64,000 nt of DNA from Octopus sinensis. Taxonomy: Eukaryota. Shown here one piece after another: positions 9,556 through 28,100 of the stretch. Each line of letters opens with the position of its first letter. Position 1 is the stretch's first letter. The position numbers were made by a program, and so were the translations under genes. The DNA lies in NCBI RefSeq assembly GCF_006345805.1, contig NC_043000.1:134106001-134170000 (forward strand). Direction: 5' to 3'. A model generated the notes under the pieces. The model did not search any database. It was not told the DNA's origin and saw nothing but the letters and a program-made list of their open reading frames with translations.

Positions 9556-10822
9556 TTGGTTTGGCAACAAAGTTTCCACTGTTTTTTTAAATTTTGGAAT
9601 TTAGTGCGTTTTTTAATTTTTTTGAGAATTCTATTTTTGAATCATTTTGGAATTTATTTTGTTTTTTTTTTTTTGTTTTTGTTTTCTAGTTAATTTTAGT
9701 TAATTTTTGTTTATTTTCAGATCATTAAAATGGAATGTGAAGTTAAGAAAAATGAGCATTTTTGACACCTCCTTCTTTTTGCTTTTAATTAAGGTTCTTA
9801 AGGCCGCAAAAGTTGCTCATGACATTTGTGCTGTGTATGGAGAGGATGCCATAGCTGAAAGAACCGCTCATGATTGGTATGCCAAGTTCAAAAATGGAAA
9901 TTTTGACCTCAAACCGTCCAGGTGAGTTCGATGAAGAGTGATTAAACCAACTTTTGCATGAAAATTCTCATCAAATGACTAGGGAAATGGCAGAGAAAAT
10001 GGAATGCTCCTACACTGCTATAGAGAAGCATCTTCACTCGATGGGAAAGGTTCAGAAGTATGGAGCATGGGTTCCGCATGCTTTAAGTGACAACAACAAA
10101 AATCAACGAGCCACAATCTCTGCTGGTTTACTTGCTTGTCACCGCTCAACTCATGGACACAAGTAACAATTTCTTTACTGAATCATTACTGGTGACAAAA
10201 AATGGTGCCTGTATATCAATATGAAGCAGTGTAAGGAATGGCTTAGCTCGGTAAGCAAGCGACACCGCGCGTGAAACAAGATCTTCATCCATGTAAAACG
10301 ATGTATGGTGGAACTGGGAAGGGATTATCCATTAAGAATTGATTGAACGGAACCAAACGGTCAAAGTGGAACACTATGTTCAGCAGATGGAATGACTCAA
10401 CACAGATATTCAAGAGAAAAGACCTAATCAGCAGCAAGGAGTTCTTTTGCTGCATGACAATGCCTGCCCTCATATCGCCAATATGACCAAGGAAGCCATT
10501 CAAATGCATGGCTGGGAAGTGCTGCCACACCCGCTGTACTCTCCTGATTTGGCACCAACAGATTTCCACCTCTTTTGATCTCTTTCAAATACTATGCATA
10601 GAGTTTCATTCAATACTAATGCAGAATTGAAATCAATTGGAACAATTTTCGAGTCAAAATCGGATGATTTCTACCAACAAGGCATTGAAAATCTTGTTGA
10701 ATGTTGGGAAGGAGTTGTAAACAACAAGGGTGAATACAGTACTGATTAATTAGTTGTTTTTAATTAAACCTTTTAAAAAATTTTAATTTAAAAAACTGGT
10801 GGGGACTTAGTTGCCAACCCAA
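9556..10822 (+). mobile_element. Decayed near-full-length mariner (DD34D) transposon, mellifera-like
   Basis: TA|TTGGTTTGGCAAC...GTTGCCAACCCAA|TA termini. Frameshifted transposase with DICAVYGEDA, WVPHALS, ITGDKKW, LLHDNA, YSPDLAPTDFHLF. Confidence 0.92.
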
Positions 10823-11710: not shown

Positions 11711-14700
11711 TTATATTAGTAAGAGGTAACAGTAGTAATAAGCTGTCAACCAACACAAGTTCTTGGCATCTGAAAGTTTGTGCATTGCTGGAGGCAACAG
11801 AAAGAGAAAGACAGATGTAGTAGACTTAGAGTGGGTTTTGCACCCAATCTTACCCGTTCGACTAGGTTTGCGAGTTAAATTACTCATACTGTTGACAGAA
11901 GAACTCTCGTGAGAAAGGAGCACCGGAACGGACCTGGTTTGCCTTGGTGAGGTAGGTCGTCGTGGAGTTATAGGACTAGTAATAGGAGTGGGGGGATGGT
12001 GTTGTTTAGGGTTGTGTGGGCGGACTTTATTAGATAAAGCCAGGAGTTTTCGCACAGCCTCAGGAGACTCGGAACCTAGGAAGAAGAGAAATGAACATGC
12101 ATTCACAGAGCTAGCATTTTTCTTTTTTTTTTTTTTTTTGCACATCCTGCTGCTAAAGGTTCTATTATTCATACAACCTGTAGCTGAGATGATACATGGT
12201 AAGCACAACATAAAAGGTCAGGTCAGGTCAGCTCATTTCAGTTGGAGCATGCATAGGGACAACAGGGAGGGACAGAAGCAATTACTGACGAAAGGAAAAA
12301 GGAGTAATTAATTAAAAAATAAACAAGCAAAAACTTGTGAAGACAAAGTTTAGAATTCAGTTTGTCAAGTCATCAGGGTTACACAAGATCATAGCAATAA
12401 AACTGGCTCTGGTTATACAGTCTTTCTGAAAGTTTAAAGAATTAGCTGAATCAAGAAATAAATATTTAGAATGGTGATTACAATGATTTCATATATATAT
12501 ATATACATATATATAAATAATATACTTATATATGTGTATATAAATATATATTATATATTTGTGAGTGTGTGTATATATATTGTGTGTGTGTACACGTTAT
12601 ACATCATGCCTTTTATGAATGAGTTTATCACATTTATGTTTTTTCACTTAAAAAAATTTGAGTTTATTTTGCTATCCTAAATAATTTCCTATATTTTAAG
12701 AAAAGAACATCAGGATTCAAATGTTAGTCAATAAATATCATAACCAAAAATTTAAGTAAAAAATATACAGGAAGAGAATGAAATTTAGAAGCAGAATGAA
12801 CACGTTTAATGAGAGAGGAAGAAACATGTTGCACAATGACATTTTAGTTTGTGAGTTCAGATTGAAGAACAGATACTGTCTGATCATAATTCTCATAAAG
12901 CATGACTCTCAAAACATTGACAAGACAATATTTCATCCAGAAAATTTTTCTGTTTTTTTTCTTCTTTTTCTTTTTAAATTGAATTTCAAAGTTCAATCAA
13001 CTTGGATGGTTTAGTGATATAGACAGTGGAAAAAAGAACTATCTTGGTTAGTAAGTTAGGAATTCAAAGAGGATGCAAAGACAATATGATGCTTTGAAGA
13101 ACATCTAGACAACTAACTAACAGGGGATTGTTGAAAATTGCTGATTAAAGAGCAACATTAAATACTCACCTGGATGGGGGGAAAAAAACAAACAAATGAA
13201 AAACACACTTATTGTTAGATGGAGAAACTGCTCTATAAAGATGCAACCATGAATCTGCAGAATTCAAGGGGAGGTAAGAGAGCAAAGCTGACATTAACAC
13301 TTACTGCTATCACTTTTTGAATCCTTTATAAAAGGGTAGATTCCAGGAAGAAATTGCAAAGCACTTAGAGACCCAGGGGAACAGCGATGCATGAGATGAG
13401 CACCTGGATGGAGGAGTTTTAAAACAACAAAATAATCAGAAGGAAAAAAAAAAATGAAAGAAATGGACTACCTGCAGATGTAATATTTAGGAGAGCTGTG
13501 AAAACAGACCTACATCTACATTGAGGTGGTTCTAGAGGATATGAAAATGCTGGAAACAAAACAGAGACCAGTGAAATAGCCTACAGAACAAGATATAGCA
13601 GTGAATAATATGTAGTCTAAAGGTGAGACAAAATGAACCAACAGCCAAGGGTGTGTTACACCAATGATATAAAATAAAACTAGGAGAAAGATTGAAATTT
13701 GAGATGGGAAAAATTGTGAGAAAAGCTTATTCTATTAATAGAGAGGAAGGAAATTTTGTGAAGGATGAATAGCAAAATTCAACACGTGTGTATGGATAAA
13801 AAAATAATAACACTGACTTAAATGTTGGTAAAAGAGAACTCACTATGAAAAAGGGGTTTTTTTCAGTAGGTCAGGAACAGAAACGTAGCAGAATTTCCTA
13901 AACAAAACCTAAAGTTAATAATGAAGAAAAAAATATCTATAATGAAGTTTTGGGAGAGAAAATATATTGAACGAAATGGGAGGGAAAAGAGATCACAATA
14001 GAAAAGTAATCTGCTCATTAAGATTACTGACCCAAGAAATCTGAAAATTTATTTCCAAAAACAATTTAAATATTTCTAAGATCCAAGACACAAAAGTATA
14101 TTACATTTCAAAAAGAAGTGGCATGATAACATGCTTGCCTATATCAATTCTTAATTAAGTTCATTTGGTGACTGCTCTTGTTTCTACGAAAGTAATGGGT
14201 GATAAAATTATAGCATAATTCCTTTCTTCATTGAACTTTCTACAAGAAATATTATATTTAAATTGCTAAAGACATATGCAAATACAACTAAAGAAATATT
14301 AAATCTAAAGTTTATAATTATGTGTGTGCATATACACACACATTCACATACATAATTATAAACGCTAAATACACATATAAGAAAATTCTTATAGCTAATA
14401 TAAAGTTACCATACTGGTACAGTAATACAGTGTCTGAAAGACAATGCATTATTGTTGCTGTTCTTTCTTTCAATAACAATGATGACAAACAATATCTGAA
14501 TATATGAAAGCTAGCAAACAGAAATTTGATATCAAATTATAATAATGCATTTTTGAATATGAGCAAAGGCATGATTGACAACAATAAAATACATTAAAAA
14601 AAAATATATAAATGAAAATGTAAGCAAAAATCATTTTCAGAAAGCAAGCAAGAAAACAAAATTATGTAGAGAAATTTCTAAACTGCACAACATACCAAAC

Positions 14701-17700
14701 TTTGGACCAACAGGATATGAACGTTTTTCATCATTAGCATTTATTGTAACGCCACTGGAGTTAGCAACGTTGAGCGCAGGAGAAGTGTCTCTCCGACGTG
14801 TTGCTGAAATAGATAATAAAAATACTGCTTGTATTCACAGAAATAACTTGGTACGAATTTTATAATTTTCTAGAATTTGGAAGAAAAGGAATACTGTTCT
14901 TATACTTCAAGAGTTTATAGTTAAAACTATAACTAAATGAAAAATTATGCAGTAATATTTTTAAATTATTTCAAAAATTTGAATAATTAATTAAGAAGAA
15001 ATCCAGATGTATACATAAACTAAGTAATGAAGTCAAATTCATTATGTGCTAGTATTTAAGAAGTATTACTAATACGAAATACTTTTGCACAATATGATGG
15101 ATCAAATTATTTTGAATCTTCTTTTCTTATAAAGAAACCTTAAAACTTTTCAATTATATGTAATTATTCAATTTAGAAAATATTCCATAAACAGAAAAGG
15201 GTTTGATGACAGCAAATATTTTTTTTTAATTTATTTGCTACAATCAGACTGTATTGTGATTTTTGGAACATTTTCTAATGCTCAAAGTTAATCATTTTTA
15301 TTAAGTTTCTTGTGTAACCAGATACCTCAAAACTGGAACTTATAAGGATGACCTGTCCATCAATGAATTTACTAATTTTTCAATTTTACAATAGGAAATA
15401 TCTGTCCTAAATGTAAGTGATAACACTACGAAGATTTACACCTAGCTAGAAAGAGGTAATAAACAGAAGAAAAAAATGGAGGGAAAAATGGTGAGTAACT
15501 GCAGTAAAAGCTAATTTGAAAATAAACAAGTACATATGTATGCAGGTGTATAGAGACACAAGCATATATCATGTTATTTATTAAAATTAAATATTTCATT
15601 CATCCTTAGTGAAAGAAAGACATTTCTCTATAACCATGTAAGTGATAGCCTGCTTGTTAATGCTTGAATCAACATAATCTTTCCCAAAATGTTATTTACC
15701 ATCCACATATTTCATTTCATTTTAGTAGAGACTCTAAAAATTTAATAGAGACCCTAACAAAATTAGAAGCACTTCCATACCATTAGTTATAAATTTTTTT
15801 TTTTGATTTACCCTGAACCAACATTTTGTCTATTTAGCATAGTTAAATAGTTGACCATATCTAAATGTAAACATACACAATGAAAGGAAGGAGAGAGAAA
15901 GAGGAAGAAGTGGCTTTCATCATGAATATTTAATATGTCATCATGTCACATCATTCTGAAATAGATTGAAAGCCTAGTTCAGAGGATTAAATTAAGTTCA
16001 CAAAAATGCTTATCTTTCATAACATCTATATTTTGTTTACCCACCTTAGGATGGTTCAAATAGAATGGAAAGTGACAGAGCAAGTATTTTATGGCAGCAC
16101 ACCATTCTTAAACTATTACCATGAAATATAGGCAGAGAAATCCAACAATTTAAAACACTTAGAATTAAAATTATTAGAAATTATAATGAAAAATCTCAAG
16201 ATAATAGTTCTCATTTATTTTTAAGATGATAGTATTTGATCTGAGAAAGAAAACCACTCATGAATAAAGTGAATCGCAAATTGTTTATTCAATCTGTCTC
16301 TATCTCTCTCCCTCTTTCCTTTCCTTGTAGGTAAGTGGTGAATGAGAATTTCAGTAATGATGCACAAACTTATTTTATATTGCAATTTGTGAAAAGCAGC
16401 ATCATTGGATCCAAGTTTCTAAAAGGTCTATCACTGGCTCACTGTAATTCTGATGGTGCAAGTGCCTAGAGAGCTTTATTAACTTAGTGGAGCATATCTG
16501 AAGAACACTGGTCATCACCAATGTTTGCCAACATATAACAAAAGATATTAACAAAAACACACACACATACATACATATGACAGGCTTTCACACAGTTTCT
16601 GTCTAGCGAATTTCATTCTAAAGGTATTGGTCAATCAGAAGCTACAGTAATGGACATTAGTCCAAAGTGCCATGCAATGAGATCAGACTTGGGACCATGT
16701 GATTGCAAAGCTAAATTCTTCACTACACAACCATGCCTATGCCTACAAGGTAATGATTATATGTCTGACAGCTCAATCAAACCCTTCATATCAGTTTAAT
16801 TGATAAAGTAAAAATTATTGGAAACTACATTTCCTTTTGGAATAAGAATTTTTAATGTATAGCCAAATTTACAAAATAAATCCTCTCAGAAGCATATTTG
16901 ACTAATAGAAATTCAAACATCTTGGTTTGAAGTGCTACTGTGCATGCAAAGTTACATAAAGGCTTTGAAGCATGCAATGTGAGAGATGAGGCTTGGTGAA
17001 TCAGAGCTATTGCTTGCACCAATGATCCATGAGAAAGTACCACATTTCTATGGCTACAGCTTATGTGCGACACATCTACAGAATCATTAAAAACTATGTA
17101 CTCACCTGTGTCAGCAACTGCACAAGCTGGCAGTGCCTCTTCCATATAATAGGGGAAACACTAATATGGATCAGTCCGGGGTGACCCTTTGAGGAATAGG
17201 TCAAAATTAATCAAGAGCAGACATATTTATTTTTAATCTTTCCCTGAAGACCAGCAGACTGAAATATGCTGATTGCAGTAGATTAGACAAGTGCTAAAAT
17301 ACCCTGACACGACCCACAGTAATGAGTATGGTACAAAGGGTAAGCAGGAAAAAAGAGTTGGAAACAAGGAGTTTGACAAGAGTCACTTACGAGGAGGTTC
17401 ACACTGAAGGGACAACTCCTGCAATTTGTCTTCATCAGTTATCACTGGCATTTTATTCAAGTACGATTTAACACGTTTGATCATCTGAGCCTGGAAAATA
17501 AGAAAAAGAGAAAATAATAATTTCTTCACTGTCATCAAAAATACATTAAATGTAGGCACCTGTGCCGGTGGCATGTGTAAAAGATTCAAGCGAGGTCATT
17601 GCCAGTACTGCCTGACTGGCCCTCGTGCCGGTGGCACGTAAAAGCACCCACTACACTTTCAGAGTGGTTGGTGTTAGGAAGGGCATCCAGCTGTAGAAAC

Positions 17701-20700
17701 TCTGCCAGATCAAGATTGAAGCCTGATGTAGCCATCTGGTTCGCTAGACCTCAGTCAAATCGTCCAACCCATGCTAGCATGGAAAGTGGACGTTAAACGA
17801 CGATGATGATGATGATGTAGAATACCTATAGTCAAAGAACCGAAAATTTTGACTCATGGCAAGTTTCTAAAATGACTGCAGTTCTAATTAAAAGGGATTT
17901 AGAAAAATTTGCTACAAACAATGGTCAAGAAAGAAAAAAAAAAAAAAGAGATTTAATCCTTCTGACACCAATTTAACTGAAATCACCCCTAGTTCTATGG
18001 AACAAACTTTGTTTTAACCCTTTAGCATTTAAACCTGCCATATCCGGCCAAAAGTATTCTGCCTGTTTTATGTTCAAACTGGCCAGATCTGGTCTCTCAG
18101 ACCAACCCTACAATATCTTTTAAAAAGTTAACAGCTACCTCATTAAAATCTCATAGCTACAAGATAATGCATGATTAATTCAAAACGGAGTGGTTGGCGT
18201 TAGGAAGGGCATCCAGCTGTAGAAACATTGCCAGATAAGACTGGAGCCTGGTGCAGCCTTCTGGCTTCCCAGATCCCCGGTCGAACCGTCCAACCCATGC
18301 TAGCATGGAGAACGGACGTTAAACGATGATGATGATGATGATGATGATGAATGTAGATGAAGAAGTATTAATTTTGGCAGAATAATGCGAACACCAAAGG
18401 GTTAACGTGATCTAAATTACAACTGCTCATCAAAATTTCATGTTATGTTACAAACACTAACTGAAAAACAAATTCTTTGCTTTCAAAATTAAAGACGAGC
18501 TCAACAGAAAGAAAAAGACTTACCTCCTCATACATCTTTTTAGCATTCGGCACTGCTGATCCTCTTCGGTTTTTAGTTCTTTTAAGTGTTGCAACACCTG
18601 AGATAGTTGAACTGCCATAGACAGTGTGTGCATTCAGACACATATTGCTTACATCCTGGATAATAATAATAATACCAAATAATAAAACTAATAACATTAA
18701 AAATTCATTTAACTAGCAGAGACATATCAATATCATTAATATATTTGCAATATCATGTTTTGTCATATAGAATTTAACAGACCTGTAGCATATGGCTTTG
18801 CTGTATGGACTGTAACAGACTTTGTAGGCTGTAATAGACTTTGTAGGCTGTAACAGACTTTGTAGGTTGTAATAGATTTTGTAGGCTGTAACAGACTTTG
18901 TAGGTTGTAATAGATTTTGTAGGCTGTAACAGACTTTGTAGGCTGTAACAGACTTTGTAGGCTGTAACAGACTTTGTAGGCTGTAATAGACTTTGTAGGC
19001 TGTAACAGACTTTGTAGGCTGTAACAAACTTTGTAGGCTGTAACAGACCTTGTAGGCTGTAATAGACTTTGTAGGCTGTAACAGACTTTGTAAGCTATAA
19101 CAGACTTTGTAAGCTGTAACAGACTTTGTAGGCTGTAATAGACTTTGTAGGCTGTAATAGACTTTGTTGACTGTAACACCAGTATTCTGTTTAAAGAACA
19201 TCACATATCACATGGATAAACCTAAGATCAAACAATTGTATTCTACAAAAAGAGAAGATGGTAGGAGAGCACTGGGTATCAGAGAACATTTTGTGTCCAG
19301 ATATTAAAGTTAAGTTTTATTTACAACTGTGTGTGATGGTGGCAGTGTTTGAAATTGAGATTTTATCATGTCAGTCAAATAGTAGGGACCACATTATGTG
19401 CATGGCAGACAAAAAATGTATGCATCATCCACTATGAAATTGATACAACTGAAATGATATATAATAGCTTCAGTAAAGAGGTCAATAGGCTCCTTATGAA
19501 AATAGATATAAGAACATTCCAGCAAATACTTGTACCATGACCCTTAAATGCACTATGATTTCTAACAAAGCATGTATTAAGTTTGAATATAAACATATGT
19601 AACTGTCAAAATGTACAATAAAAATAGGAAGGCATTAATGTGTCCTTCATGTGAGTGGTTTGTGGCATGGGCACATGTTACAGGTGGGGAGTGTGGTGGA
19701 TATAGTCAATTAAATCAACCCTGGTACTTGATCTTGATTAGTGTAATTTTATTAATCCTTCAAGTACAAAAGGTACAGCTGAACCTTGTGAAAATTGTGC
19801 TCAGAATAAAGTAATACTATAAGGTATCAAGCTCAAAGCTCTACCAATTTTATTTAATAATAAAAAAAGAAAGAGAGAATGATAATCATCTGTTATGTGA
19901 TTTAATGTATTCCAAGATTAGAAATCAAAAATGACTAGCTGCTTTGAGAAAAATCTTTTGCAAAGATTTCAGACTTACATATCGTGCAGAACACATGTCA
20001 CATATATGGCGGATTTCTTTAGCAATCATACGCAATTTCTCAAAATTGATTAAGCCATCTACCATAGAATCATTGCCAAAGTGAATAAATGTCAGATCTT
20101 TCTTGATAACGGGGAAGAAAGGCAACTGAAAGAGAAGAATAAAGAATATAAGTAACTACAAACATATATATGTCCTTATTTCTAATACATAAAAGTACCC
20201 ATTACACTCTTAGAGTGGTTGGCGTTAGGAAGAGCATCCAGCTGTAGAAAACCATGCTGAATCAAACTGGAGTTTGGTGCAGCCTGCCAGCTTACCAGCT
20301 CTGGTCAAACCATCCAACCCATGCCAGCATGAACAATGGACGTTAAATGATGATGATGATGATGTGTTGTGTATACACAAACACATACACACAGTCTTAC
20401 AAATAGAAGAAAGAGAACTCAATATATAAACCATACTATACACAATCTTTATAAGCTATAAGGAGTTACTCAAAAGTCACAAATTTCATACAAAAGCACG
20501 TATCAAATTACAGAATTTTTTGGGCACAAAATTCTAGCCTCAACTAATTCCTATAGTTTCTTAGCTTGTAAAAGACCACACACACATATCATTTTTATAT
20601 AGCCTTTCCACGCTAGGTTGGGAATTTTTGAGGCAGTCTTTTATGGTCAAATGTGCTAACAAATGTTAATGCTTTTAGTTGCTGTTTGCAACATGCAAGA

Positions 20701-25100: not shown

Positions 25101-28100
25101 ATTGAAGTTACCAAAACCAAACAAACTTGTTCTACTTTCGTTAGTTGGAATAAAGAAAAAGAAAACAAAAACTCACCGACTTGGGTCAGTAATCCCAAAC
25201 TCTTGCAATGCCAGCATCACAACAGTTCTTGAATCAGTTTCCTGTAGATCATTAAATAAATGAATTTAATTAATCATTTTTTTTTTTTAATTGAAATTAA
25301 TAAAAAGATAATTTTTAAATAAAATTATTCTAAACTAGCAGTATCGCCCAGCGTTGCTCGGGTTTGTAAGGGAAATAACTATATAAGCATTTTTAGAGAG
25401 TTATAGCCAAAAATTAGCAAAAAAATGCATTAAAAATGGGGAAAAAATGATGGTAAATTTTTTTTTAAATCGTTGACTCATCGTAGACATTTTTAGAGAG
25501 TTACTTCTCTTATATAATAACGAAAAAAATGCATTAAAATGGAAAAAAATTATGGTAAATTTTTTTTTAAATCGTAGACTCATCATAGACGCGCGCTAAT
25601 ACCCAGAAGGGCTCGATATGAATCACGACTATAAGATACCCGGTTTTGATTAAAATGCACCGCAAAATTTGAGAGTAGTTAGGAATCTAAATCGTAGGAG
25701 ACAGACACACAACTTGACTTTTATATATAAAGATATGAATCAAGACTGAAACTTACCCGGTAAACTGTAAGATATTTGAAGGATTGATCCGAGCGATAGA
25801 TTTTAAGGACATGGTCCGGAAAGTCTGTCTTTGGATCATCTGTTAAACCAGAAACTGATAAATCAGGGTTGCTGATAGACAGATGGCTAGACATTCCAGC
25901 AGTTGATGATGAGGTAGAAGATGACGTGGAAGACTTGCGAGAAGGTTTTGTATATAAGCTTTCATCTGAATGGTTCATACTGTTATCACTGCTGAAAGAA
26001 AAGCAATGAGATTAAAATCAGTCATGGACTGAATGAATATCAATTTCGAAATTGTTCATATGAACTGTGTATTTCATTCACTTGAAAATAACTGAAAGAC
26101 TTTGCAGTCAGGGAAGAGAAATGAGTGAAATATAAAACATTTAACCCTTTAGCATGCATTACATTCTTCAAGATTCCAATGAATTGATTGTTCAATTTAA
26201 AAATGACAAACATGAAACAGAGAGAATATTTTGGCCGTGCCGGTGGTACGTAAAAAGCACTATCCGAATCGTGGCCGAAGCCAGCGTCACCTCGACTGGC
26301 TTCCATGCCGGTGGCACGTAAAATGCACCAATCTGATCGTGGCCGTTGCCAGCCTCGCCTGGCACCTGTGCAGGTGGCACGTAAAAAATACCCACTACAC
26401 TCACGGAGTGGTTGGCGTTAGGAAGGGCATCCAGCTGTAGAAACACTGCCAGATCAGACTGGAGCCTGGTGCAGCCTTCTGGCTTCCCAGATCCCCGGTC
26501 AAACCGTCCAACCCATGCTAGCATGGAGAATGGACGTTAAACGATGATGATGATGATGGCTGGTTTAAATGTTGAAGGGTTAATTTTATAATATTTATTT
26601 AAATGAATGAGTGTCAAACATGTTTTTCAATAAGAGTAAACCATATACAGACAGATATGCTTGTAGTGACATATAATACAAATAAATGTATAAGGGTCAG
26701 GGATTGTTGACAGTGAGGTATACTCAAATGTTATTGAGAAGCTGTTATCAAAATTAGACTGAATACATTGAATTCTTGAACTTTGGAGATGTGATCCAAA
26801 AAGAGACAGATATACTGTGGAGACACTGTATTGTAGATCTATTCAACCCCATGCCAGAAAGAAAGAAGATTTTAAAATTTAACTGCACACAATTTAAAAT
26901 CACAATTTGTTGACATGTTTCAACAATTTTCTTTATACAGAGGTGAAATAATTAAGTTACGCACATACAATTAAATGGTGAATAATTCTTTGAATTTTCA
27001 GCTTTTCTTTAAAATTTCTTGTAAGAAAATAAATTATCTTACTTATTTTCAATTATCTTGTGACAATTTCTAATCAACATCTCAAAAAATCCAAGATAAA
27101 GTGGTGCAGCCTAGGTATACACTATTCTTTATTAATCGAAACAAGTTTGTAGAGCAGTTTCATCCTGTATACGCACATGTTAGACTTCTAATAGAGATGT
27201 CCTAAAACTTATTAATATTACGGGAAACTACCACCTGTGTCATCTCTTGTGAAAGGTAGGAGAGTCCAGTTTGCTGGACATTGTTGTAGAGCTGAAAAAG
27301 AGGTCATTTCTACTCTCCTCCTCTGGAAGCCATCTACTCGCAATGCCAGAGGACGCACATTCTCCTACCCTGATGTAATCTCCTAGGATACAGGCATCCA
27401 GCAACAGGACCTCCGTAATGCCATGATGGACCGTGAAGTCTGGCGTAGCATGGTAAATTCCATTGTCTCGACCACAGTCAAACAATGATGATGATGACAC
27501 CCGAGGAATTTGGAGCTTAGTTAATTCCATCTTCTCTGTATACATTTTTTCATCAAGTAGTTTGTAGTGAATTGGTTTTTCAGTCACATTCCACCTTTCA
27601 TACCAAATGATTCTACTTTAAAGACAAAGATGCATATACATATAAGATGAGGCTTCTTAAAGATAATATTTCTCACAAAGATAAAGTGCTACACAAACCT
27701 GTTTAGCTTTGGGATGAAATTCATTTTCATCAAAGCCTTCCGGATCTTCGGCTTATAAGTCATTGTCATAAAACCTCTTTCTTTCTTGTCATTTTTCTTC
27801 TCTTTCACAGAAGAAATGGCTGGAGCCAAAGATGCTTCTAAGTCAGGTGCTGAAAGCCTCTGTTTGTGATCTGTATACAATTTAATTGGCTCATCTTTCG
27901 AGCCACTGGATCGTTTCTTTTCAGTTAGAAGTTCTCTAAATTCTGAAATGCAAACAACAACAAATATATATAATTTGGATGAACTGAACAGAATTGCATG
28001 TCACATCATCCTCATTCACTCTGACTCTTTGATGGTATGATGCTCTATTTTTAGGATAACATTGTAAGGTAGATGTGAAAGGCTTGATCAGGCCAGTTTC

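What the first reader, a model, noticed from the sequence alone, without database searches (positions are those of the whole stretch)
13122..13897. Dense cluster of phase-1 symmetric cassette-exon candidates in the C-terminal intron
Seen: within 780 bp of the phase-1 intron 12076-14695, five segments follow an acceptor-like pyrimidine tract plus AG and all have lengths divisible by 3. They are 13844-13897 (54 nt, GTGAGT donor, one internal TGA), 13472-13549 (78 nt), 13305-13403 (99 nt), 13213-13254 (42 nt, donor reads ATAAGT) and 13122-13169 (48 nt, GTTAGT donor, [15 protein letters not shown]). The spacers between the last four are only 68, 50 and 43 nt, which would sterically favour mutually exclusive use. 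The 99- and 48-nt units share CCATCCAG|GTG and start GAHLM versus GEYLM, hinting at exon duplication. Inference: an undescribed array of alternative exons diversifying the post-GEF tail. Caveat: candidates were picked by eye, so some fits may be chance.
Basis: partly seen in the sequence, partly recalled or inferred. Interest (0 to 1): 0.75.

Follow-up and report, generated by a model that had tools for sequence, protein, structure and literature searches.

The report
One known exon, one ratchet candidate
An intron near the end of an octopus signalling gene (RAPGEF2) holds one optional 99-base exon that databases already list, plus a back-to-back splice signal that likely lets the intron be cut out in two steps; the proposed array of five interchangeable exons is not supported.

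Summary
The gene is octopus RAPGEF2 (PDZ-GEF), minus strand.

99 nt (13305-13403): a real cassette exon. It is in 5 of 22 retrieved isoforms (peptide 32/32 identical, Octopus to Argonauta), and both junctions appear in contigs of run X2. It combines freely with the 222-nt exon, which is itself optional.

54 nt: has a stop and a poor acceptor. The better acceptor at 13908 explains an annotated isoform ending GFV*.

42 nt: no GT donor; its end holds a branch-point-like CTAAC.

78 nt: unresolved.

48 nt: starts at CCAG|GTGAGT, the best acceptor and best donor of the intron, with a weaker donor 48 nt on. This is the layout of a Drosophila ratchet point with its RS-exon. Such motifs are about 4-fold enriched in this genome (89 vs 21), and 39 of 106 have a strong donor 20-120 nt downstream (11-13 of 106 further on). 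Use in RNA is unshown, and this scan already noted the octopus ratchet signature on other DNA.

Mutual exclusivity is unsupported; duplication hints are weak. Mostly ordinary, with one testable candidate.

The parts
14696..14803 (-). Upstream 108-nt phase-1 exon of RAPGEF2 (TRRRDTSP...GPKF)
   Evidence: spliced alignment to P0016; its end is the loose end behind 13404 in X2
13844..13908 (-). Alternative acceptor at 13908 (score 7.7) giving G-F-V-stop; likely start of a terminal or poison exon.
   Evidence: P0024 ends PKFGFV; only place downstream of 14695 in the window where an AG gives GFV*; scores
13472..13549 (-). 78-nt open candidate, unresolved: good acceptor (8.0), weak donor (2.0)
   Evidence: in 0 of 22 isoforms; bridged unbroken by an X2 contig; one C-to-R change in organism B
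13305..13403 (-). Real 99-nt phase-1 cassette exon, [32 protein letters not shown]; already annotated
   Evidence: 5 of 22 isoforms, 32/32 identical Octopus-Argonauta; X2 contig 13303-13404 with both junction ends; 0 substitutions in organism B
13213..13254 (-). 42-nt segment: acceptor 6.0 but no GT donor, so not an exon as drawn. It could start an 85-nt frameshifting exon ending at 13170
13214..13218 (-). Branch-point-like CTAAC, 49 nt upstream of the 13169 acceptor
   Evidence: motif position; the role is inferred from the recalled consensus
13164..13207 (-). Pyrimidine-rich tract + CAG|GTGAGT: tandem acceptor/donor (ratchet-point-like site, junction 13170/13169)
   Evidence: best acceptor (13.6) and best donor (11.6) of the intron; expected jointly 0.008 times in 54.7 kb of intron; motif unchanged in organism B
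13122..13169 (-). 48-nt RS-exon-like unit with weaker downstream donor CCT|GTTAGT (5.8); open in frame
   Evidence: holds all 3 organism-B substitutions of 13002-13403; no junction seen in 4 runs
11854..12075 (-). 222-nt phase-1 exon (SESPEAV...), itself an optional cassette
   Evidence: absent from 12 of 22 isoforms (one of these is the GFV* form and one skips further); skipped by the X2 junction from 13305 to the next exon just outside the window

Best explanation
The stretch holds one real, already annotated 99-nt cassette exon of octopus RAPGEF2, and the 48-nt unit is likely a recursive-splicing site (ratchet point) whose short exon would usually be skipped.

Shown: the 99-nt and the 222-nt exon each go in or out, and all four combinations exist among database isoforms. 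This changes the low-complexity tail between the RasGEF domain and the C-terminus.

Inferred: an upstream donor would splice to the strong 13169 acceptor and so rebuild a donor. After exon 14696 the rebuilt donor (TTG|GTGAGT, 7.9) would beat the donor 48 nt on (5.8), so the unit would vanish and the 99-nt exon would be bypassed. After the 99-nt exon the rebuilt donor is weaker (GCA|GTGAGT, 5.5), so the in-frame 48 nt could sometimes be kept.

The 54- and 42-nt units are not cassette exons as drawn; the 78-nt unit is probably a pseudo-exon. Odds by step: 99-nt exon real 0.98; no mutually exclusive array 0.9; 13169 used as a recursive site 0.4.
For: 99-nt exon: in P0014, P0015, P0016, P0025, P0027 (5 of 22 isoforms). 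In X2, one contig joins 13375-13404 to 27 letters of exon 14696 and another joins 13303-13332 to 28 letters of the SIGSS exon (matching sequence printed).

Combinations among the 22: both 3, 222 only 7, 99 only 2, neither 9, GFV* 1.

Tandem site: top acceptor and top donor of the intron; 0.1% of 2353 intronic AG and 0.1% of 2474 GT score as high.

Genome-wide counts after Y12-N-CAG: GTAAGT 89 vs GTAATG 21; GTGAGT 33 vs GTGATG 13 and GAGTGT 9. After R12: 31 vs 46; odds ratio 6.3, P 1.5e-8. Of 106 motif sites, 39 have a donor >=7 at +20..+120, vs 13, 11 and 13 in the next three windows and 4 of 32 control sites (P 5e-5 and 0.009). Median spacing 56 nt, frames 24/24/18.

This matches the fly description: tandem acceptor-donor, ~50-nt cryptic exon, weaker downstream donor, conserved motif with poorly conserved body (PMC8605326). 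Here all 3 organism-B substitutions in 13002-13403 fall in the 48-nt body and none in the motif.
Against: No junction into 13169 or out of 13122/13170 in any of the 4 laid runs; X1, X2, X13 and X18 contigs all bridge the site unbroken. Contigs drop rare forms, and only X2 showed any splice junction, so this is weak.

The local intron is short (2.6 kb; about 15 kb only when the 222-nt exon is skipped), whereas fly recursive introns are mostly long (PMC6110457 passages, which also mention some of 1.7-2.5 kb). The focal site does not match the strict Y12 pattern, so the genome statistics support the class, not this site.

The matrices rest on only 20-21 sites from this one gene. One antisense site scores nearly as well (6.8/9.6). 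Organism B is close (22 differing letters in about 1300), so conservation has little power. Only 1 of at least 18 O. sinensis isoforms was visible; unseen ones could carry the 48- or 78-nt unit.
Confidence: 0.55

Rival explanations
1. 13170 works only as a donor, closing an 85-nt frameshifting exon (13254-13170) or a 234-nt extension of the 99-nt exon that contains a stop. These would be poison isoforms removed by nonsense-mediated decay.
For: Acceptor 13254 scores 6.0 and donor 13170 scores 11.6. 0 organism-B substitutions in 13170-13403, 234 nt (P 0.03 vs the rest). The T-tract length varies between runs, which fits non-coding use. One X13 contig runs from 13404 through the 99-nt exon into the downstream intron unbroken.
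Against: Does not explain why the 40 nt before the donor form the intron's best acceptor with a branch-like CTAAC. No junction at 13254 or 13170 in 4 runs (weak).
Confidence: 0.15
2. The 48-nt (and perhaps the 78-nt) unit is an ordinary, rarely used or tissue-restricted cassette exon, so the intron holds two or three independent cassettes.
For: Both are open in phase 1 with good acceptors; 3 strict candidates vs 0.38 in shuffles and 0 of 49 tiles.
Against: In 0 of 22 isoforms. The organism-B changes include amino-acid changes (I-to-N, C-to-R) while the 99-nt exon has none. The internal GTGAGT would compete with the downstream donor.
Confidence: 0.15
3. Apart from the 99-nt exon and the 13908 acceptor, the signals are chance or regulatory sequence (decoy sites, splicing-factor binding) flanking a regulated exon.
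For: Under lax criteria the density is not significant against shuffles (P 0.08). No RNA support for the other units (weak). Conserved flanks are common around alternative exons (recalled).
Against: A joint acceptor+donor of this strength is expected 0.008 times in the gene's 54.7 kb of intron (post hoc).
Confidence: 0.12
4. One reading: a duplicated array of mutually exclusive symmetric exons.
For: Short spacers (68, 50, 43 nt). 99/48 starts match 17 of 23. 42/48 bodies match 21 of 30 with one gap; 14 of 5281 tiles score as high.
Against: The 54-nt unit has a stop and a poor acceptor; the 42-nt unit has no donor. Only the 99-nt unit appears in isoforms or contigs. 9 of 10 body pairs show no similarity. 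The 42/48 match has a 1-nt gap, so frame is not kept.
Confidence: 0.03

Closest known systems
Annotated octopod RAPGEF2 isoforms (XP_029635860.1, XP_052822943.1, XP_014786851.1, GAB1600821.1, XP_014786860.1)
   Same: They already contain the 99-nt exon, its skipping, skipping of the 222-nt exon and the GFV* ending.
   Different: None of the 22 isoforms seen contains the 54-, 78-, 42- or 48-nt peptides. They are database gene models; I found no paper on them (4 papers hold both words, none on this by title or abstract start).
Drosophila ratchet points with cryptic RS-exons, and the expressed 51-nt Ubx m1/m2 RS-exons (PMC8605326; PMC6110457)
   Same: Tandem acceptor|donor, a short exon of about 50 nt, a weaker downstream donor, and a motif better kept than the exon body.
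   Different: Sits among alternative coding cassettes in a short intron, not deep in a very long one; no intermediate, sawtooth or lariat shown; mollusc.
Mammalian RAPGEF6 exon 21A (24 nt, NOVA2-regulated; PMC10178952 passages)
   Same: A cassette exon in the disordered region downstream of the RasGEF domain of a PDZ-GEF.
   Different: Different length; positional orthology and sequence likeness were not tested. Its reported effect on Rap1 binding cannot be carried over.
Mutually exclusive exon arrays (Dscam1- or Mhc-type; recalled)
   Same: Closely spaced same-phase segments.
   Different: No set of homologous, similar-length exons; only one unit is shown to be used.

Membership tests
RAPGEF2/6 (PDZ-GEF) gene | RasGEF_N, PDZ, RA and RasGEF domains in one protein | tested here: met
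   Pfam on P0016; its exons map along the window's minus strand
Symmetric cassette exon (99 nt) | Spliced in at both ends in RNA | tested here: met
   two junction contigs in 1 of 4 runs (X2)
Symmetric cassette exon (99 nt) | Also skipped; frame kept; conserved | tested here: met
   present in 5, absent in 17 of 22 isoforms (6 of the 17 are unnamed proteins of a more distant relative whose genome may lack it); 32/32 identical in Argonauta
Mutually exclusive exon array | Two or more units each used in mRNA | tested here: inconclusive
   only the 99-nt unit seen; the data show presence, not absence
Mutually exclusive exon array | Every unit has working splice sites and an open frame | tested here: not met
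   54 nt: stop, acceptor -0.3; 42 nt: no GT donor
Mutually exclusive exon array | Units homologous and of similar length | tested here: not met
   lengths 42-99; 9 of 10 body pairs not similar; 42/48 weakly similar with a 1-nt gap
Recursive splice site / RS-exon | Strong acceptor directly followed by a donor (AG|GT) | tested here: met
   13.6 and 11.6, both best in the intron
Recursive splice site / RS-exon | Weaker donor about 50 nt downstream | tested here: met
   5.8 at +48 vs rebuilt 7.9 after exon 14696; about equal (5.5) after the 99-nt exon
Recursive splice site / RS-exon | Deep conservation of the tandem motif | tested here: inconclusive
   unchanged in organism B, which is too close to give power
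Recursive splice site / RS-exon | Mostly in long introns | tested here: inconclusive
   2.6 kb locally; about 15 kb when the 222-nt exon is skipped
Recursive splice site / RS-exon | Splicing intermediate (upstream exon joined to the site, running on into intron), sawtooth or lariat | tested here: inconclusive
   not seen in contigs of 4 runs; contigs drop rare forms and no raw reads were offered
Recursive splice site / RS-exon | Weakening the rebuilt donor causes inclusion of the short exon | not testable with these tools
   needs a minigene

The most novel reading that the evidence does not exclude
The 13169 site is a working recursive splice site embedded among alternative coding exons. The exon spliced onto it sets the strength of the rebuilt donor, so the 48-nt exon is erased after exon 14696 but kept after the 99-nt exon. 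That would be an Ubx-like, context-dependent RS-exon in a mollusc, one of about a hundred octopus ratchet points.
Probability: 0.2. Interest if true: 0.6.

Novelty: new member of a known kind. Interest (0 to 1): 0.3.

Why it matters
The confirmed part is routine: a disordered signalling-protein tail varied by cassette exons, already in databases. The open part matters modestly. I found no paper on recursive splicing in cephalopods (two searches listed no relevant hit), although this scan has noted the signature elsewhere in octopus. This site is short enough for a compact minigene and gives a specific prediction: the 48-nt exon should appear only together with the 99-nt exon.

Tried and rejected
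No RNA holder is on record among the runs listed; run kinds are guesses, and X2 is taken as RNA because it holds exon-exon junctions. Only one laying gave results (13000-14300; X1, X2, X13, X18). Neither flanking exon was inside it, so junctions appear only as loose ends. X1 and X18 show no junction at all and say nothing on splicing. Contig depths were not used to rank parts.

No relatives' genomes are held, so cross-coleoid conservation and dN/dS could not be done. A search of shorter proteins for the 99-nt peptide found 0 of 26 candidates. The representative search gave 8 hits; the 2 I read were unrelated repeat proteins. The read-through ORF is not in the collection. A repeat cluster look-up listed the same 15 of 17 members; 2 were never seen.

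Rfam: 9 weak microsatellite-like miRNA hits, all below gathering score and none in 13122-13897. The repeat finder showed only short two- or three-copy matches. Rejected: a sequencing error at the 42-nt donor (same letter in 4 of 4 runs). The first junction of the spliced alignment failed (47 of 61) and was dropped from training. Unplaced-scaffold motif hits (12 GTAAGT, 2 GTGAGT, 2 GTGATG) were not fetched, and 2 of 108 fetched test sites were dropped as repeats. A search for a fly dizzy splice-variant paper found nothing relevant by title. No supplements were opened.

Full report
Gene and context. The minus strand encodes RAPGEF2 (PDZ-GEF). The 222-nt exon finds octopus RAPGEF2 at 99% identity. 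P0016 carries RasGEF_N, PDZ, RA and RasGEF domains and maps exon by exon from 59.4 kb to 11.85 kb. The next exon (SIGSS...) lies just outside the window start. The 13050-13950 stretch has one match in the genome.

Observation. All five segments are at the stated places with the stated lengths and flanks. I built matrices from 21 donors and 20 acceptors of this gene, leaving out the 99-nt sites. Acceptor/donor scores: 54 nt -0.3/3.5; 78 nt 8.0/2.0; 99 nt 5.6/7.5; 42 nt 6.0/no GT; 48 nt 13.6/5.8. True sites left out one at a time score 2.9-18.1 (acceptors) and 0.9-12.9 (donors). Under lax rules the region gives 6 candidates vs 3.6 in shuffles (P 0.08) and vs a mean of 2.5 in 49 other tiles (0 reach 6). 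Under stricter, post hoc rules it gives 3 vs 0.38 (0 of 300 shuffles, 0 of 49 tiles). The stretch is signal-rich, but not five exons' worth.

The 99-nt exon is real and known. Of 22 retrieved proteins that contain the upstream exon, 5 carry its peptide: named isoforms of O. bimaculoides, O. sinensis and Argonauta hians. The peptide is 32 of 32 identical between Argonauta and O. sinensis, against 33 of 35 and 71 of 73 for the flanking exons. In run X2 a 102-nt contig covers 13303-13404. One neighbouring contig continues with 27 letters of exon 14696, another with 28 letters of the SIGSS exon (sequences matched by eye). X2 therefore includes the 99-nt exon and skips the 222-nt one. Among the 22 proteins, 3 have both, 7 only the 222, 2 only the 99, 9 neither and 1 ends GFV*. 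The two cassettes are independent. Six of the 'neither' rows are unnamed proteins of a more distant relative.

The 54- and 42-nt units fail as drawn. The 54-nt unit has an in-frame TGA and its AG is poor. An AG 11 nt upstream (13908, 7.7) gives G-F-V-stop, the ending of XP_014786860.1, and is the only such place downstream of 14695 in the window. The 42-nt unit's ATAAGT is the same in all four runs. Its last bases hold CTAAC, 49 nt before the 13169 acceptor, which reads as that acceptor's branch point (consensus recalled). The 78-nt unit has a good acceptor, a weak donor and no support in isoforms or contigs; it remains open.

The 48-nt unit. Its first bases, CCAG|GTGAGT, are both the best acceptor and the best donor in the intron. 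Under independence such a pair is expected 0.008 times in 54.7 kb of this gene's introns; at looser cut-offs (7/6) 2 sense and 0 antisense sites pass, 0.15 expected. PMC8605326 (part 1 of 6 and passages read) describes this layout: tandem acceptor-donor, a cryptic exon of about 50 nt, a weaker downstream donor, a conserved motif with a poorly conserved body, and the expressed 51-nt Ubx exons. In organism B the only 3 substitutions in 13002-13403 fall inside the 48 nt (one silent, an adjacent pair giving I-to-N) and none in the motif. Counted as two events this is about 0.014 by hand arithmetic, post hoc. The rebuilt donor scores 7.9 after exon 14696 and 5.5 after the 99-nt exon, against 5.8 downstream; hence the context-dependent prediction, which is inference from small matrices.

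Does this genome have such sites? After Y12-N-CAG: GTAAGT 89 vs GTAATG 21; GTGAGT 33 vs GTGATG 13 and GAGTGT 9. After a purine tract the ratio reverses, 31 vs 46 (odds ratio 6.3), so ordinary donors do not explain the excess. I fetched 108 of the 122 test sites and 32 of the 34 GT-keeping controls and dropped 2 test sites as repeats. A donor >=7 lies at +20..+120 in 39 of 106, against 13, 11 and 13 in the next three 100-nt windows, 5-13 in three upstream windows, and 4 of 32 controls. Spacing has a median of 56 nt and no frame bias. The sites were not mapped to genes. The focal site is not in this set. I reached this before looking at earlier notes; one search then showed that the scan had reported the same octopus signature on other DNA, also without RNA.

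Against the ratchet reading: contigs of all four runs bridge 13169 unbroken (weak, since contigs drop rare forms and only X2 shows junctions). The intron is short compared with typical fly recursive introns (PMC6110457, passages only). A donor-only use (85-nt or 234-nt poison forms) fits the 234 unchanged bases at 13170-13403.

Duplication. The 99/48 starts match 17 of 23 (above 210 of 210 and 42 of 42 comparators), but their first 40 nt align at null level. The 42/48 bodies match 21 of 30 with a 1-nt gap; 14 of 5281 tiles do as well, about 0.03 after ten comparisons. An old local duplication is possible, but it does not yield a coding array.

Literature. No paper in the library holds both 'recursive splic' and 'octopus'. 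One holds it with 'cephalopod', only in its reference list. Four hold RAPGEF2 and octopus, none on this topic by listing. Mammalian RAPGEF6 has a NOVA2-regulated 24-nt exon in the disordered region after RasGEF (PMC10178952, passages), so cassette exons in this tail have precedent. The library lacks most subscription papers; supplements were not opened.

Verdict. What remains is one untested ratchet-point candidate with a clear test. Interest 0.3.

Noticed in passing
window 51256 (minus strand): Second tandem acceptor|donor (TTCTTCAG|GTATGT; 7.9/7.9) in the 11.5-kb intron between the 59.2- and 47.7-kb exons. The spliced alignment across this intron failed, so a small unlocated exon may also lie here.
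   Followed up: no
window 13294-13404: One X13 contig runs from 13404 through the 99-nt exon into the downstream intron unbroken; read-through would end the protein ...DSSKC*, removing the EQVSAV terminus. Could be pre-mRNA, intron retention or an alternative last exon.
   Followed up: partly
G000 genome-wide (L006-L113): About 4-fold excess of pyrimidine tract-CAG|GTRAGT motifs with a second donor at a median of 56 nt downstream.
   Followed up: partly
window 25988-25993: CAG|CAG tandem acceptor; database isoforms differ by one serine there (KLNSDNS in P0001 vs KLNSSDNS in P0037).
   Followed up: no
window 17106-17240: Strong donor CAG|GTGAGT after 17106 with a GC-richer stretch upstream, in the intron before exon 14803; possible further optional exon (seen).
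   Followed up: no
P0012 (Lamellibrachia): An annelid homologue has its own roughly 20-residue insert between GPKFG and AESPDAV, the same junction, suggesting this position is repeatedly used for optional exons.
   Followed up: no
window 18810-19170: Tandem array of a roughly 20-nt unit inside the 19979-18655 intron (seen).
   Followed up: no
window 9560-10820: Broken ORF pieces on the plus strand that look like a mariner/Tc1 transposase remnant (the likeness is recalled, not tested).
   Followed up: no
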